Of a DNA stretch of 64,000 bases, positions 1 through 37,030 are shown piece by piece (within the stretch, counting starts at the first letter, position 1; each line of letters opens with the position of its first letter). The stretch comes from Escherichia coli (GTDB lineage Bacteria > Pseudomonadota > Gammaproteobacteria > Enterobacterales > Enterobacteriaceae): the NCBI RefSeq assembly GCF_044647545.1, contig NZ_CP172818.1. One strand, 5' to 3'. A model generated the notes under the pieces. It did no database searches. It was not told where the DNA came from and worked only from the letters and a program-made list of their open reading frames with translations. Position numbers and translations under genes: made by a program.

Positions 1-506
1 TATCGGGAAACCAGGCTCCCGCTCTGGTAGCAATTTCCTTTGTGGTTGTTTTCCTGTGCCTTGCTGCACTCTATGAAAGCTGGTCAATTCCTGTCTCGGT
101 TATGTTGGTCGTGCCGTTAGGGATTGTCGGCGTGCTACTAGCGGCGACACTCTTTAATCAAAAAAATGACGTCTACTTTATGGTGGGCTTGCTAACGACA
201 ATTGGCTTGTCGGCTAAAAACGCTATTTTGATTGTTGAGTTCGCTAAAGATCTCATGGAAAAAGAGGGTAAAGGTGTTGTTGAAGCGACACTAATGGCAG
301 TACGTATGCGTCTGCGTCCTATCCTGATGACCTCTCTCGCCTTTATTCTCGGCGTATTACCGCTAGCTATCAGTAACGGTGCCGGCAGTGGCGCGCAGAA
401 CGCAGTGGGTATCGGGGTAATGGGCGGGATGGTTTCTGCAACGTTGCTGGCAATCTTCTTCGTGCCGGTGTTCTTTGTGGTGATCCGCCGTTGCTTTAAA
501 GGATAA
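1..506 (+). CDS. acrF: RND multidrug efflux permease AcrF, C-terminal part (5' end lies outside window)
   Basis: ORF reads in from the window edge to a stop at 506; hydrophobic RND C-terminal TM segments; position upstream of yhdV-yhdW as in E. coli. Confidence 0.75.
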
Positions 507-758
507 ATCAGAAACATAAAGGCACTTTCGGGTGCCTTTATTATTTTCAGTGAAACCCATAAAAATTAATAAGATATTCTTCTTCTCACTCTTTAAAAAC
601 TTTCTATAGTTCCCGCTCCCTTCACTATTTTTACAATTCACATAATTTGTCATTATTCATTCCGCAAGATTTATAACCTCCGGTGATAAAATGGCATTCA
701 GCTCGTTAATAAGAGAGTTAACTTATTAAGCGTTAGCGTTTATTACTGAGGTAACACC

Positions 759-980
759 ATGAAAAGATTAATTCCTGTGGCATTGCTCACCGCATTGCTG
801 GCGGGCTGTGCTCACGATTCGCCCTGCGTTCCGGTTTATGATGATCAGGGTCGACTGGTTCACACCAATACCTGTATGAAAGGCACGACTCAGGATAACT
901 GGGAAACGGCTGGGGCTATTGCTGGCGGGGCAGCAGCTGTTGCTGGCCTGACGATGGGGATCATCGCTCTGTCGAAATAA
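759..980 (+). CDS. yhdV: small lipoprotein YhdV
   Basis: 73 aa ORF with lipoprotein signal (LLAGC lipobox) and Gly/Ala-rich C-terminus; synteny. Confidence 0.75.
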   Translation: MKRLIPVALLTALLAGCAHDSPCVPVYDDQGRLVHTNTCMKGTTQDNWETAGAIAGGAAAVAGLTMGIIALSK

Positions 981-1410
981 CTGAACAGGGCGCGGAGTAC
1001 CGCGCTCTGTTTAACGATACAGTATCTCTCCATAAGATAAAATATTGCTATATTCTGCTGGGTAATTCCCTGCTGATTTAGCATGTTATATCGCGTTATT
1101 TCGCTGCTTTCGAAATAACGCATCAATTTAATTTTCACACTTCCTACCAGAAATATACTCACGCTAACAATCATTATTCTGCTTAGTAAAAAATGTGTGA
1201 ATATTTTGCGCCAAAATGTGGCGCATGTTTCATTTTCGCACCATTGCGGGGCGCTGTTTTTATTATTTCCTGTCTACACTCAGCTTATTGCGACGCGAAA
1301 TCGTGCGCAAAAGCTGGCACTACTTTTGCTTATAAGAGGATGGCCACAGACAGGTAAAAGACGTTTCCCAAACGTCCTATAACGATAATTTTCGCCTCAC
1401 AGGAAGCATT

Positions 1411-2436
1411 ATGAAAAAGATGATGATAGCCACACTGGCTGCCGCCAGCGTGCTGCTTGCCGTTGCAAATCAGGCGCATGCTGGCGCGACGCTTGATGCC
1501 GTTCAGAAAAAAGGTTTTGTGCAATGCGGGATCAGTGATGGATTACCTGGGTTCTCTTATGCCGATGCTGACGGTAAGTTTTCAGGTATTGATGTAGATG
1601 TTTGTCGTGGTGTTGCGGCAGCTGTATTTGGTGACGACACGAAAGTGAAATATACCCCGCTCACTGCAAAAGAACGCTTCACGGCTTTACAGTCAGGGGA
1701 GGTGGATTTGCTCTCCCGTAATACGACCTGGACTTCATCTCGCGATGCCGGGATGGGAATGGCATTTACCGGCGTCACTTATTACGACGGCATTGGCTTC
1801 CTGACTCACGATAAAGCGGGACTAAAAAGCGCGAAAGAACTGGATGGCGCTACCGTCTGTATTCAGGCGGGTACTGATACCGAACTCAACGTTGCCGATT
1901 ACTTTAAGGCAAACAATATGAAGTACACACCAGTGACTTTCGATCGCTCTGACGAATCAGCGAAGGCACTGGAATCTGGTCGCTGCGATACGCTGGCCTC
2001 GGATCAATCACAACTGTATGCCCTGCGCATCAAATTAAGCAACCCGGCTGAATGGATTGTCTTACCGGAAGTTATCTCCAAAGAACCGCTTGGGCCGGTA
2101 GTTCGTCGTGGCGATGATGAATGGTTCTCGATTGTACGCTGGACGCTTTTCGCCATGCTGAATGCTGAAGAGATGGGCATCAATTCCCAGAACGTCGATG
2201 AAAAAGCGGCTAATCCGGCAACGCCTGATATGGCACATCTGCTGGGTAAAGAAGGCGATTACGGCAAGGATCTGAAGCTGGATAATAAATGGGCTTACAA
2301 CATCATCAAACAGGTGGGTAACTACTCGGAAATTTTTGAGCGTAACGTAGGTTCAGAAAGCCCGCTGAAAATTAAACGTGGGCAAAATAATCTCTGGAAT
2401 AACGGCGGAATTCAGTACGCGCCGCCCGTGCGTTAA
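1411..2436 (+). CDS. yhdW: amino-acid ABC transporter periplasmic substrate-binding protein
   Basis: 341 aa ORF with signal peptide, first gene of a four-gene ABC transporter cluster; intact here. Confidence 0.85.
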   Translation: MKKMMIATLAAASVLLAVANQAHAGATLDAVQKKGFVQCGISDGLPGFSYADADGKFSGIDVDVCRGVAAAVFGDDTKVKYTPLTAKERFTALQSGEVDLLSRNTTWTSSRDAGMGMAFTGVTYYDGIGFLTHDKAGLKSAKELDGATVCIQAGTDTELNVADYFKANNMKYTPVTFDRSDESAKALESGRCDTLASDQSQLYALRIKLSNPAEWIVLPEVISKEPLGPVVRRGDDEWFSIVRWTLFAMLNAEEMGINSQNVDEKAANPATPDMAHLLGKEGDYGKDLKLDNKWAYNIIKQVGNYSEIFERNVGSESPLKIKRGQNNLWNNGGIQYAPPVR

Positions 2437-2503
2437 GTCGGTGTGAGGTAACGAGCGTCGCTACGGCGGCGCTCTCTTCAGCGTTATGCTTTCCGAGGTT
2501 TCT

Positions 2504-3685
2504 ATGTCTCATCGCCGCTCAACCGTTAAAGGCTCACTCTCCTTTGCCAACCCTACGGTTCGCGCCTGGTTATTCCAGATCCTTGCCGTTGTTGCTGTTG
2601 TTGGCATTGTTGGTTGGCTATTTCACAACACTGTGACGAATCTCAGTAATCGTGGCATTACTTCAGGTTTTGCCTTTCTGGATCGCGGCGCTGGCTTCGG
2701 TATTGTCCAGCATTTGATCGATTACCAGCAGGGTGATACCTACGGACGCGTTTTCATTGTTGGCTTACTCAATACGCTACTGGTTTCTGCATTGTGTATT
2801 GTATTCGCTTCTGTTCTGGGCTTCTTTATCGGTCTGGCGCGACTTTCGGATAACTGGCTGCTACGAAAGCTTTCCACAATTTATATTGAGATCTTCCGTA
2901 ATATTCCGCCGCTGCTGCAAATCTTCTTCTGGTACTTTGCCGTGTTGCGCAATTTGCCCGGACCACGCCAGGCAGTGAGTGCGTTTGAGCTGGCCTTTTT
3001 GAGCAATCGTGGGCTTTATATTCCGTCGCCGCAGCTGGGAGACGGATTTATTGCATTTATCCTGACTGTTGTTATTGCTATAGCCCTTTCTGTTGGACTA
3101 TTCCGTTTTAATAAAACGTACCAGATAAAGACCGGACAATTGCGCCGAACCTGGCCGGTCGCCGTTATGTTGATCATAGGTTTGCCTTTACTGGCGCAAT
3201 GGCTTTTTGGCGCAGCACTACACTGGGATGTTCCAGCCCTACGAGGCTTTAACTTCCGTGGCGGGATGGTTTTAATTCCTGAACTGGCAGCCTTAACGCT
3301 GGCACTTTCGGTTTATACCTCTGCATTTATCGCCGAGATTATCCGCGCTGGGATCCAGGCAGTGCCTTATGGTCAACATGAAGCGGCACGGTCACTGGGA
3401 TTACCCAACCCGGTTACGCTACGCCAGGTCATTATTCCCCAGGCACTGCGAGTGATTATTCCGCCGTTAACCAGCCAGTATCTCAACATCGTCAAAAACT
3501 CCTCTCTTGCCGCCGCTATTGGCTATCCGGATATGGTTTCGCTGTTTGCTGGCACCGTGCTGAACCAGACGGGGCAAGCCATCGAGACGATAGCCATGAC
3601 CATGTCGGTCTATCTGATTATCAGCCTGACTATCTCGCTGCTGATGAATATCTATAACCGCCGCATCGCGATCGTTGAACGCTAA
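2504..3685 (+). CDS. yhdX: amino-acid ABC transporter permease
   Basis: Polytopic membrane ORF; track ORF starts at 2486, likely start at MSHRR (2504). Confidence 0.85.
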   Translation: MSHRRSTVKGSLSFANPTVRAWLFQILAVVAVVGIVGWLFHNTVTNLSNRGITSGFAFLDRGAGFGIVQHLIDYQQGDTYGRVFIVGLLNTLLVSALCIVFASVLGFFIGLARLSDNWLLRKLSTIYIEIFRNIPPLLQIFFWYFAVLRNLPGPRQAVSAFELAFLSNRGLYIPSPQLGDGFIAFILTVVIAIALSVGLFRFNKTYQIKTGQLRRTWPVAVMLIIGLPLLAQWLFGAALHWDVPALRGFNFRGGMVLIPELAALTLALSVYTSAFIAEIIRAGIQAVPYGQHEAARSLGLPNPVTLRQVIIPQALRVIIPPLTSQYLNIVKNSSLAAAIGYPDMVSLFAGTVLNQTGQAIETIAMTMSVYLIISLTISLLMNIYNRRIAIVER

Positions 3686-3691
3686 GGAGTC

Positions 3692-4798
3692 ATGATGACA
3701 AAAGTATTGCTGTCTCATCCCCCGCGCCCGGCGAGCCATAACTCAAGCCGCGCGATGGTGTGGGTGCGAAAAAATCTATTCTCCAGCTGGAGCAATAGCC
3801 TGCTGACTATTGGCTGCATATGGTTGATGTGGGAACTGATCCCACCGTTGCTGAACTGGGCATTTTTGCAGGCTAACTGGGTTGGCTCAACGCGTGCCGA
3901 CTGCACAAAAGCCGGTGCCTGTTGGGTCTTCATCCACGAACGATTTGGTCAGTTTATGTATGGGCTTTACCCACACGACCAACGCTGGCGAATTAACCTG
4001 GCATTACTGATTGGGCTTGTATCGATCGCACCAATGTTCTGGAAAATACTCCCGCATCGCGGTCGCTATATTGCGGTATGGGCGGTGATTTACCCACTGA
4101 TTGTCTGGTGGCTGATGTATGGCGGGTTTCTTGGTCTTGAGCGGGTTGAAACCCGGCAATGGGGCGGGCTGACGCTAACTTTAATTATTGCATCAGTTGG
4201 GATTGCGGGGGCGCTGCCGTGGGGGATCTTACTGGCGTTAGGTCGCCGCTCCCATATGCCGATTGTGCGTATCTTATCGGTCATTTTTATCGAGTTCTGG
4301 CGCGGTGTACCGCTGATTACCGTTCTGTTTATGTCTTCGGTCATGCTGCCGTTGTTTATGGCAGAAGGCACCAGTATCGACAAATTGATCCGCGCGCTGG
4401 TTGGCGTGATCCTGTTTCAGTCAGCATATGTTGCGGAAGTCGTGCGAGGCGGATTACAGGCGCTGCCTAAAGGGCAATATGAAGCGGCAGAGTCGCTGGC
4501 GTTGGGTTACTGGAAAACCCAGGGGCTGGTTATTCTGCCACAGGCGTTGAAGCTGGTGATTCCTGGGCTGGTAAATACCATCATCGCACTTTTCAAAGAT
4601 ACCAGCCTGGTGATCATCATCGGGTTGTTCGATCTTTTCAGTAGCGTTCAGCAGGCAACCGTTGATCCCGCCTGGTTGGGTATGTCGACGGAAGGGTATG
4701 TTTTCGCAGCACTGATCTACTGGATCTTCTGTTTCAGCATGTCACGTTATAGCCAACATCTGGAAAAACGTTTTAACACCGGGCGTACACCGCATTGA
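3692..4798 (+). CDS. yhdY: amino-acid ABC transporter permease
   Basis: 368 aa polytopic membrane ORF immediately downstream of yhdX. Confidence 0.85.
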
Positions 4799-4805
4799 GG
4801 ACACT

Positions 4806-5564
4806 ATGAGCCAAATTTTACTGCAACCTGCTAACGCGATGATTACGCTGGAAAACGTCAATAAATGGTATGGGCAATTCCATGTTTTGAAAAATATAAA
4901 TTTAACCGTGCAACCGGGAGAACGGATCGTTCTGTGTGGCCCTTCTGGTTCCGGTAAATCGACAACCATTCGTTGTATTAATCATCTGGAAGAACACCAA
5001 CAGGGACGGATCGTGGTAGATGGCATCGAGCTTAACGAAGATATTCGCAATATTGAGCGCGTCAGGCAGGAAGTGGGAATGGTCTTTCAGCATTTCAATC
5101 TCTTCCCTCATCTGACCGTTCTACAGAACTGTACCCTGGCACCGATTTGGGTACGCAAGATGCCAAAGAAAGAGGCAGAAGCTCTGGCGATGCATTACCT
5201 TGAGCGGGTGAGAATTGCCGAACATGCGCATAAGTTTCCCGGACAGATTTCAGGTGGTCAGCAGCAACGCGTTGCCATTGCGCGTTCGCTGTGTATGAAG
5301 CCGAAAATTATGTTATTTGATGAGCCAACGTCGGCGCTCGATCCTGAGATGGTGAAAGAGGTGCTGGATACGATGATTGGGCTGGCGCAGTCGGGTATGA
5401 CAATGCTGTGTGTAACACATGAGATGGGGTTTGCACGAACCGTCGCTGACCGGGTGATTTTTATGGATCGTGGGGAAATAGTGGAGCAAGCTGCACCGGA
5501 TGAGTTTTTTGCGCATCCTAAGTCAGAGCGTACGAGGGCATTTTTATCGCAGGTGATCCATTAA
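4806..5564 (+). CDS. yhdZ: amino-acid ABC transporter ATP-binding protein
   Basis: Walker [13 protein letters not shown] signature LSGGQQQR, Walker [12 protein letters not shown]. Confidence 0.9.
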
Positions 5565-5585
5565 TTGAATGTTAGTTCGAAAAGC

Positions 5586-5620
5586 AAAAAGGCCATCCTT
5601 TCGGATGGCTTTGTTGATTT
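5586..5620. terminator. bidirectional intrinsic terminator (yhdZ on plus strand, rrnD operon on minus strand)
   Basis: GC stem gccatcc-tttc-ggatggc flanked by T-runs on both strands, between yhdZ stop and the 3' end of rrfF. Confidence 0.65.
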
Positions 5621-35660: not shown

Positions 35661-35799
35661 CTGGGGGGGCGGGCCGCGCCGCGCGGGGGCGCTTGTTCGC
35701 CCTCTCTGCACGGCTGGTGTCCGGCAGTTCGGCCCGTCTCTGGTCGGTTTTTCTGGGTGAAAGGTGGCGGCCGCGCGATTTACGCGTGCCCGCCCCCCC

Positions 35800-36204
35800 C
35801 CCCTTACTCTGGTCAGGTCTTTTGTTCTATCATGGGAGTTTGGGCTAATCGATTCCCCTGATCGGTTTAGCCGATGCGTTATGGGGGGCGATTATTGGTT
35901 ACGGCACATTCGCTGTCATTTACTGGGGGTATCGCATTCTGCGTCATAAAGAAGGATTAGGCTATGGTGATGTGAAGTTTCTCGCCGCCCCCTTGGTGCC
36001 TGGCATACATCCTATCGACTGGTTTTCCTTGCTGCCTTCATTGCTTGCCGAGCCGTAGTTCATTGGTCTGCTCATGAGAGGAAAAGAGTCATTAAAAAAT
36101 CTCCCGCTGCCGTTGTGGGAGCATCTTCTGCGCGAACTGACGGGTTTCGTTGTAGGCTGGGATAGTTATGCTGGCAGGCCGTTAATCTTTAACTTTTATT
36201 TGTG
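35800..36204 (+). pseudogene. gspO: 3' remnant of a type II secretion / type IV prepilin peptidase gene (gspO-like), frameshifted
   Basis: Translation gives PLLWSGLLFYHG, then after a stop ...IGYGTFAVIYWGYRILRHKEGLGYGDVKFLAA, then a frame change before a C-terminal PLPLWEHLL stretch; no start codon or 5' half; the 3' end overlaps the convergent bfr stop. Confidence 0.6.
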
Positions 36205-36985: not shown

Positions 36986-37030
36986 CAATTTTATTTGCGC
37001 CATAGTTCAGCGAGGAACGACAAAACGGGC

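What the first reader, a model, noticed from the sequence alone, without database searches (positions are those of the whole stretch)
1411..2436. yhdW is intact, unlike the K-12 reference where I recall it as a pseudogene
The substrate-binding gene of the yhdWXYZ transporter is a continuous 341-codon ORF with a signal peptide. From memory, MG1655 annotates yhdW as disrupted, so this strain probably retains a functional transporter of unknown amino-acid specificity.
Basis: partly seen in the sequence, partly recalled or inferred. Interest (0 to 1): 0.25.

Follow-up and report, generated by a model that had tools for sequence, protein, structure and literature searches.

The report
Intact yhdW; K-12 carries the mutation
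This strain has the normal, intact gene for the amino-acid-binding protein of the YhdWXYZ transporter; the laboratory strain K-12 is the exception, with a one-base deletion, and this is already documented, so the finding is correct but ordinary.

Summary
Window 1411-2436 (+) is an uninterrupted 341-codon yhdW with a standard signal peptide. It is followed by intact yhdX, yhdY and yhdZ. MG1655 b3268 is annotated as a pseudogene. Its only lesion is loss of one base, gene nt 68 (window 1478), in codon 23 at the A-H-A signal-peptidase site, which leaves a 78-aa product.

The intact state is the ancestral norm, not a feature of this strain. The deletion-specific 34-mer occurs in 355 of 5,426 complete E. 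coli genomes, essentially all K-12 laboratory derivatives. All 80 species of Enterobacteriaceae sampled have an intact 341-codon gene, 91-99% identical.

The operon is driven by a sigma-54 promoter at 1315-1330. It is conserved in 79/79 species and already known as yhdWp, reported as NtrC-regulated.

The protein is a family-3 binding protein, 58% identical to the BztA-like structure 4z9n. A 2026 preprint already reports the same nt-68 deletion and shows that C. rodentium YhdW binds asparagine (Kd 0.37 uM).

Most likely function: a nitrogen-limitation-induced periplasmic importer of asparagine or related polar amino acids. The finding is already known and of low interest.

The parts
1207..1225 (+). 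Conserved imperfect palindrome TGCGCCAAAATGTGGCGCA. Candidate enhancer site for a sigma-54 activator (NtrC and/or ZraR). This role is inferred, not shown.
   Evidence: Conserved block in an alignment of 16 genera. Also flagged as an inverted repeat. Its half-sites resemble the NtrC half-site, but the spacing is 2 nt longer than the canonical 17-mer (my reading, with the consensus taken from memory).
1237..1254 (+). Second conserved upstream block, CGCACCATTGCGGGGCGC, with an NtrC-like GCACCA half-site. Candidate activator site (inferred).
   Evidence: Invariant G89/C90/C92/C103 and neighbouring columns. The operon is described as NtrC-regulated in 10.1101/770727.
1269..1283 (+). Conserved block CCTGTCTACACTCAG between the putative enhancer sites and the promoter. 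Function unknown; possibly a site for a DNA-bending protein.
   Evidence: Nearly invariant across 16 genera.
1315..1330 (+). Sigma-54 promoter yhdWp: -24 TGGCAC, 5-nt spacer, -12 TTGCT.
   Evidence: It is the only match to TGGCACN5TTGCW in the 64 kb (0.14 expected). The motif is kept in 79/79 species while the 5-nt spacer varies. The literature describes yhdWp as a sigma-54 promoter with a perfect consensus (PMC7045595). An RpoN holoenzyme gSELEX peak lies in the yhdV-yhdX spacer (PMC8743547).
1343..1359 (+). Conserved 5'-UTR block GCCACAGACAGGTAAAA. Bases 1346-1354 are perfectly complementary to GcvB nt 153-161. This is a weak, unproven lead.
   Evidence: The 9-mer is kept in 64/79 species, but a match of this length arises in 7% of shuffles.
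1401..1406 (+). Shine-Dalgarno sequence AGGAAG.
   Evidence: Read directly from the sequence. The CACAGGA core is invariant across genera.
1411..2436 (+). yhdW: intact periplasmic substrate-binding protein, 341 aa. The signal peptide is encoded by 1411-1482. Base 1478 is the one missing in K-12.
2504..3685 (+). yhdX: permease, 393 aa, intact.
3695..4798 (+). yhdY: permease, 367 aa, intact.
4806..5564 (+). yhdZ: ABC ATPase, 252 aa, intact, with Walker A GPSGSGKS, signature ISGGQ, Walker B IMLFDE and H-loop VTH.
5589..5612 (.). GC-rich hairpin with T-runs on both strands. Likely a bidirectional terminator between yhdZ and the convergent rrnD operon.
   Evidence: pattern match only.

Best explanation
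Window 1411-2436 is the ordinary, ancestral, intact allele of yhdW, the first gene of the yhdWXYZ operon.

Proposed mechanism:
- YhdW is exported by the Sec pathway and its 24-residue signal peptide is cleaved after A-H-A.
- In the periplasm it captures a polar L-amino acid. Asparagine is most likely, possibly with aspartate, glutamate or glutamine.
- It docks onto the YhdX/YhdY permease pair, and the YhdZ ATPase drives import.
- Transcription starts from a sigma-54 promoter at 1315-1330 and so depends on an enhancer-binding activator. NtrC under nitrogen limitation is reported, and ZraR is also reported.

The K-12 lineage lost one base in codon 23. That destroys the cleavage site and shifts the frame, leaving K-12 with YhdXYZ but no binding protein.

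Shown here: the intact ORFs, the exact K-12 lesion, its restriction to K-12-type DNA, the conservation of gene and promoter across genera, and family membership.

Inferred: the substrate, the direction of transport and the identity of the activator.
For: - ORF, signal peptide and Shine-Dalgarno sequence.
- MG1655 b3268 is annotated as a pseudogene. The lesion is one missing base at nt 68, giving a 78-aa product.
- The other 19 differences from K-12 in yhdW include only one amino-acid change, V64I. This points to purifying selection and a recent lesion.
- yhdX, yhdY and yhdZ are intact, with 8, 4 and 2 amino-acid differences from K-12.
- The deletion-specific 34-mer is in 355/5426 genomes. All 60 sampled are K-12 derivatives, apart from one mosaic genome carrying a K-12-identical segment.
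- The locus is present at >=80% coverage in 5394/5426 genomes.
- 80/80 species have an intact 341-codon gene, and 79/79 keep the sigma-54 motif.
- The protein is 58% identical end to end to the BztA-like 4z9n.
- Literature: the same nt-68 deletion, and Asn binding by C. rodentium YhdW with Kd 0.37 uM; a sigma-54 promoter; an RpoN binding peak; NtrC regulation and the K-12 frameshift; strong induction of yhdW and yhdX in UPEC CFT073 together with ast genes and argT.
Against: - There is no transport or binding measurement for the E. coli protein.
- The Asn result comes from an un-reviewed preprint on C. rodentium, whose YhdW I could not retrieve. It was not among the 80 best loci, so it is probably below about 91% identity.
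- That preprint also found no growth defect in the deletion mutant and calls the system 'not a primary Asn importer'.
- The related Aap and Bzt systems have broader substrate ranges.
- The two upstream conserved blocks do not fit the canonical 17-bp NtrC spacing, so the activator sites are not established.
Confidence: 0.9

Rival explanations
1. YhdWXYZ in E. coli is a broad-range 'general L-amino-acid permease' like AapJQMP of Rhizobium, not an asparagine-selective system.
For: The preprint states that YhdW, BztA and AapJ are homologues and that YhdZ falls in the KEGG 'general L-amino acid transport' group. The large binding protein (341 aa) and long permeases (393 and 367 aa) match that subgroup.
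Against: [quoted passage not shown]
Confidence: 0.25
2. Even with an intact binding protein, the system mainly acts in efflux or antibiotic homeostasis rather than nutrient import.
For: In K-12, deleting yhdWXYZ raises lomefloxacin accumulation and sensitivity. Aap can mediate efflux as well as uptake.
Against: In C. rodentium, which has the complete system, deletion does not change antibiotic susceptibility. Type I ABC systems with a binding protein are importers (established knowledge). The sigma-54/NtrC control and the co-induction with ast and argT fit nitrogen scavenging.
Confidence: 0.05
3. The difference is an artefact: either a sequencing error created the K-12 frameshift, or an error masks a frameshift in this window.
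For: None found.
Against: 355 independent K-12-type assemblies share the deletion. 5,035 other genomes match the K-12 80-mer around the site at 95-99% rather than exactly. The window sequence is identical to FDAARGOS_497 over 1-5609. 80 species have the same 341-codon frame.
Confidence: 0.01
4. The gene is intact but the operon is silent or decaying in this strain, so no functional transporter is made.
For: Reporter work found yhdWp among the weakest of the sigma-54 promoters tested. No laboratory growth phenotype is known.
Against: The ratio of 18 silent changes to 1 amino-acid change against K-12, and the 91-99% protein identity across genera, show continuing selection. Promoter and Shine-Dalgarno sequence are conserved. 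yhdW is strongly induced in CFT073. The preprint reports in-vivo fitness effects in C. rodentium and, citing Shea et al. 2024, in UPEC.
Confidence: 0.05

Closest known systems
E. coli K-12 MG1655 yhdW (b3268), annotated as a pseudogene
   Same: Same locus and synteny (acrEF-yhdV-yhdWXYZ-rrnD). About 98% nucleotide identity. Identical promoter and 5' UTR. Once the frame is restored, the protein differs by one residue, V64I.
   Different: K-12 lacks base 68 of the gene, which truncates the product to 78 aa. The window gene is intact.
Citrobacter rodentium YhdWXYZ (Borde et al. 2026 preprint, 10.64898/2026.05.04.722672)
   Same: Orthologous four-gene operon with an intact binding protein. Other Citrobacter species are 95-98% identical to the window's YhdW.
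   Different: Asn binding (Kd 0.37 uM) and the mouse colonisation phenotype were measured only for C. rodentium. I did not obtain its YhdW sequence. The paper gives 85%, 89% and 92% identity for YhdX, YhdY and YhdZ against E. coli.
Brucella ovis BztA-like periplasmic binding protein, PDB 4z9n
   Same: Aligns over residues 22-341 at 58% identity, E = 5e-122, including the C-terminal extension typical of this subgroup.
   Different: From an alphaproteobacterium, and its ligand has not been characterised.
BztABCD of Rhodobacter capsulatus and AapJQMP of Rhizobium leguminosarum
   Same: Same gene order (binding protein, two permeases, ATPase). Same subgroup according to the preprint. Aap is also induced by nitrogen limitation.
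   Different: Reported substrate ranges are wider: Glu/Gln/Asp/Asn for Bzt, and most L-amino acids for Aap. I did not compare the sequences directly.

Membership tests
Polar amino-acid ABC importer (type I, binding-protein dependent) | Family-3 solute-binding protein domain | tested here: met
   Pfam PF00497, 59.7 bits against a cut-off of 26.4.
Polar amino-acid ABC importer (type I, binding-protein dependent) | Cleavable N-terminal signal peptide on the binding protein | tested here: met
   KK, a hydrophobic core and A-H-A|G, read directly and by hydropathy. The A-x-A motif is kept in the 80 species. No dedicated signal-peptide predictor was available.
Polar amino-acid ABC importer (type I, binding-protein dependent) | Two permeases with the BPD_transp_1 domain and the His/Glu/Gln/Arg/opine 3-TM region | tested here: met
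   PF00528 in both. TIGR01726 scores 63.5 and 69.6 bits against a cut-off of 42.2.
Polar amino-acid ABC importer (type I, binding-protein dependent) | ABC ATPase with Walker A, signature, Walker B and H-loop motifs | tested here: met
   PF00005, 136.7 bits. The motifs were located.
Polar amino-acid ABC importer (type I, binding-protein dependent) | ATP-dependent uptake of an amino acid | not testable with these tools
   Needs transport assays.
Aap/Bzt subgroup (general or acidic/amide amino-acid permeases) | Large binding protein of about 340 aa, alignable end to end with a BztA/AapJ-type protein | tested here: met
   58% identity to 4z9n over residues 22-341.
Aap/Bzt subgroup (general or acidic/amide amino-acid permeases) | Long permeases (about 370-400 aa) and the gene order binding protein-permease-permease-ATPase | tested here: met
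   393 and 367 aa. The conserved permease core starts only around residue 160-190. Gene order is W-X-Y-Z.
Aap/Bzt subgroup (general or acidic/amide amino-acid permeases) | Direct sequence comparison with R. leguminosarum AapJ or R. capsulatus BztA | not tested
   Those sequences were not fetched. The relationship rests on the preprint's statement.
Aap/Bzt subgroup (general or acidic/amide amino-acid permeases) | Substrate range | not testable with these tools
   Only the C. rodentium orthologue has been measured, and it binds Asn.
Lysine/arginine/ornithine binding protein family (TIGR01096) | Score at or above the curated cut-off | tested here: not met
   198.8 bits against a cut-off of 256.35. 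It is not filed as a member of this family.
Sigma-54 (RpoN) dependent promoter | -24 GG and -12 GC elements with canonical spacing, conserved in orthologous loci | tested here: met
   TGGCAC-N5-TTGCT at 1315-1330, the only match in the window, kept in 79/79 species. An RpoN gSELEX peak and reporter work are in the literature.
Sigma-54 (RpoN) dependent promoter | Identified enhancer-binding activator and its sites | tested here: inconclusive
   Two conserved upstream blocks exist, but their spacing does not fit the canonical NtrC 17-mer. NtrC and ZraR are both reported as regulators.

The most novel reading that the evidence does not exclude
The deeply conserved non-coding blocks around yhdWp could encode regulation that has not been described. 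The 5'-UTR block at 1343-1359 might pair with the R3 seed region of the GcvB small RNA (9 perfect base pairs, local duplex about -16 to -20 kcal/mol). That would put yhdW in the GcvB amino-acid-transporter regulon. The two upstream palindromic blocks might integrate two different sigma-54 activators (NtrC and ZraR). Such control could have been overlooked because the gene is a pseudogene in K-12.
Probability: 0.12. Interest if true: 0.3.

Novelty: already known. Interest (0 to 1): 0.08.

Why it matters
It matters little beyond bookkeeping. The point worth keeping is that K-12 is an atypical reference at this locus. Conclusions about YhdWXYZ drawn from K-12, such as its antibiotic-accumulation phenotype, may not carry over to wild, commensal or pathogenic E. 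coli, which have the complete importer. This has already been said in print. The intact allele in this window could serve as a template to repair K-12 yhdW, or as the natural E. coli protein for ligand assays.

Tried and rejected
- Full-length RNA duplex folding of the yhdW 5' UTR against GcvB. It forces a global duplex, and the result was no better than shuffles or random genomic segments, so I rejected it as a test. I replaced it with a local seed test, which gave only P about 0.07.
- Rfam scan of 600-5600 at a permissive threshold. The only result was a chance sub-threshold microRNA hit. No known leader or sRNA was found.
- Sigma-70 promoter scan. It found fewer matches than the shuffles and nothing convincing upstream of yhdW, which fits a sigma-54-only promoter.
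It was not among the 80 loci kept, so I could not measure identity to the biochemically characterised protein.
- An independent origin of the deletion in the non-K-12-labelled genome EcN_Sk. Rejected, because its yhdW is 0/1025 different from K-12.
- Filing the protein as a Lys/Arg/Orn, Glu/Asp or cystine binding protein. Rejected, because all NCBIfam scores are far below their cut-offs.
- I skipped the large protein-database searches and structure prediction, because they could not change the verdict.

Full report
**Observation.** Window 1411-2436 (+) is one uninterrupted ORF of 341 codons that starts at ATG. AGGAAG lies 4 nt upstream of the start. The N-terminus, MKKMMIATLAAASVLLAVANQAHA|GATLD, has the three parts of a Sec signal peptide: two lysines, a 15-residue hydrophobic core (mean hydropathy 2.37) and an A-x-A cleavage motif. 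A stop-free run of this length has a chance probability of about 8e-8. The product matches Pfam SBP_bac_3 above threshold. It also matches the solved periplasmic binding protein 4z9n at E = 5e-122 over residues 22-341, at 58% identity.

**Comparison with K-12.** NC_000913.3 annotates yhdW (b3268, 3419042-3420066) as a pseudogene of 1025 nt, against 1026 nt here. RefSeq marks the same gene 'frameshifted' in K-12 AG100. A global alignment shows one indel: K-12 lacks the A at gene nt 68 (window 1478), in codon 23, the His of the A-H-A cleavage motif. The K-12 reading frame then ends after 78 aa. The other 19 differences are substitutions, and only one changes an amino acid (V64I). The mature part of the K-12 protein is still fully open in the shifted frame. 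The lesion is therefore recent, and the gene had been under purifying selection until then. yhdX (2504-3685), yhdY (3695-4798) and yhdZ (4806-5564) are intact in both strains, with 8, 4 and 2 amino-acid differences.

**Which state is unusual.**
- The locus is present at >=80% coverage in 5394 of 5426 complete E. coli genomes.
- An 80-nt K-12 probe across the deletion matches exactly in 355 genomes and at 95-99% in 5035.
- A 34-nt probe that can only seed on the deleted allele hits the same 355 genomes. An evenly spaced sample of 60 of them is made up of K-12 laboratory derivatives such as MG1655, BW25113, DH5alpha, C600, J53 and MC4100.
- The one exception by label, EcN_Sk, has a yhdW identical to K-12 at all 1025 positions, inside a roughly 3.5-kb K-12-identical segment. 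It carries K-12-type DNA, not an independent event.
- Across 80 species representatives of Escherichia, Citrobacter, Enterobacter, Kosakonia, Cedecea and others, yhdW is an intact 341-codon gene in 80/80, at 91-99% protein identity.

The intact state is therefore ancestral and nearly universal. K-12 is the exception.

**Surroundings and regulation.** The four genes are tightly spaced, with gaps of 67, 9 and 7 nt. A GC-rich hairpin with T-runs on both strands follows at 5589-5612, facing the convergent rrnD operon.

Upstream, TGGCAC-N5-TTGCT at 1315-1330 is the only sigma-54 consensus match in the 64 kb, with 0.14 expected. It is retained in 79/79 species while its 5-nt spacer varies, which is a clean phylogenetic footprint. 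No convincing sigma-70 promoter is present.

The literature agrees:
- yhdWp is listed as a sigma-54 promoter with a perfect consensus (PMC7045595).
- An RpoN holoenzyme gSELEX peak lies in the yhdV-yhdX spacer (PMC8743547).
- The operon is described as NtrC-regulated (10.1101/770727) and as ZraSR-regulated.
- In UPEC CFT073, yhdW and yhdX are among the ten most induced genes in artificial urine, together with astABCDE and argT (10.1101/2023.10.13.562160).

A 16-genus alignment also shows conserved blocks at 1207-1225, 1237-1254 and 1269-1283, and in the 5' UTR. The first two look like activator sites but do not fit the canonical NtrC spacing, so I leave the activator sites open.

**What it does.** All defining parts of a type I, binding-protein-dependent polar amino-acid ABC importer are present and pass the curated thresholds. 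No NCBIfam substrate-specific model reaches its cut-off. The best, the Lys/Arg/Orn family, scores 198.8 against 256.35, so the specificity cannot be read from those models.

The closest solved structure is the uncharacterised BztA-like protein of Brucella ovis. The 2026 preprint by Borde et al. places YhdW with BztA and AapJ. It shows by thermal shift and ITC that C. rodentium YhdW binds asparagine with Kd 0.37 uM and not valine. It also finds no laboratory growth defect in the deletion mutant, but reduced early colonisation in mice.

My best explanation is a nitrogen-limitation-induced periplasmic scavenging system for asparagine, possibly also for related acidic and amide amino acids. The substrate and the direction of transport are inferred by orthology. 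They are not shown for the E. coli protein.

[quoted passage not shown] An earlier preprint already called K-12 yhdW non-functional because of a frameshift. The genome annotations say the same. My independent alignment reproduces these statements exactly. The finding is correct, already known, and describes the normal state of the species.

**Limits.**
- I could not retrieve C. rodentium YhdW, because it was not among the 80 loci kept. Its identity to the E. coli protein was therefore not measured.
- I did not compare directly with AapJ or BztA of the model organisms.
- I did not count other kinds of disruption across all E. coli genomes. At least one IS1 insertion exists (H40).
- The GcvB complementarity in the 5' UTR is not statistically compelling on its own.

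Noticed in passing
window 1346-1354 (within the conserved 5'-UTR block 1343-1359): ACAGACAGG is a perfect complement of GcvB sRNA nt 153-161. The local duplex is about -16 to -20 kcal/mol, and the 9-mer is kept in 64/79 species. A match of this length occurs in 7% of shuffles, and no paper in the library links yhdW to GcvB.
   Followed up: partly
window 1207-1225, 1237-1254 and 1269-1283: Three non-coding blocks upstream of the sigma-54 promoter are conserved across 16 genera. The first is a 19-bp imperfect palindrome, and the second carries an NtrC-like GCACCA half-site. Neither fits the canonical NtrC spacing, and the third block has no obvious assignment.
   Followed up: partly
L087 (NZ_CP172017.1, strain EcN_Sk, stool, Herdecke, Germany), locus 2951-3975: This 5.06-Mb genome is not labelled K-12, yet it carries a yhdW identical to K-12 at all 1025 nt, including the deletion. 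The gene sits inside a roughly 3.5-kb K-12-identical stretch flanked by clusters of differences. Its acrF is also annotated as frameshifted.
   Followed up: partly
window 35661-36170 and 37014-37028: These are the only places where the window departs notably from its near-identical relative FDAARGOS_497. The first is a stretch flanked by G- and C-homopolymer runs between rpsJ and bfr. The relative's annotation shows only a 155-aa 'prepilin peptidase' gene there, no chiA between bfd and tuf, and no gsp secretion cluster of the kind I recall K-12 having at this position.
   Followed up: no
window 5609-5613: Three single-base C deletions relative to FDAARGOS_497 lie in the terminator hairpin between yhdZ and the 5S rRNA gene. 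There is also one indel in the 23S rRNA gene (6338) and three A/G differences in the 16S rRNA gene (10347, 10687, 10881). These may be rrn copy variation or assembly noise.
   Followed up: no
hit H40 (NZ_CM192846.1, strain EC-07): This genome matches only the last 6% of the query, next to an IS1A transposase. It is an example of an independent IS disruption of yhdW outside K-12. In all, 26 genomes have a partial match and 6 have none.
   Followed up: no
L004-L083: Most orthologous loci sit at a contig end just beyond yhdZ. That is consistent with the adjacent rRNA operon breaking draft assemblies, and it suggests the yhdWXYZ-rrn adjacency is conserved across Enterobacteriaceae. One locus is labelled 'Chryseobacterium sp. 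18061' but carries an enterobacterial-type gene (91% identity), so it is probably a mislabelled or contaminated assembly.
   Followed up: no
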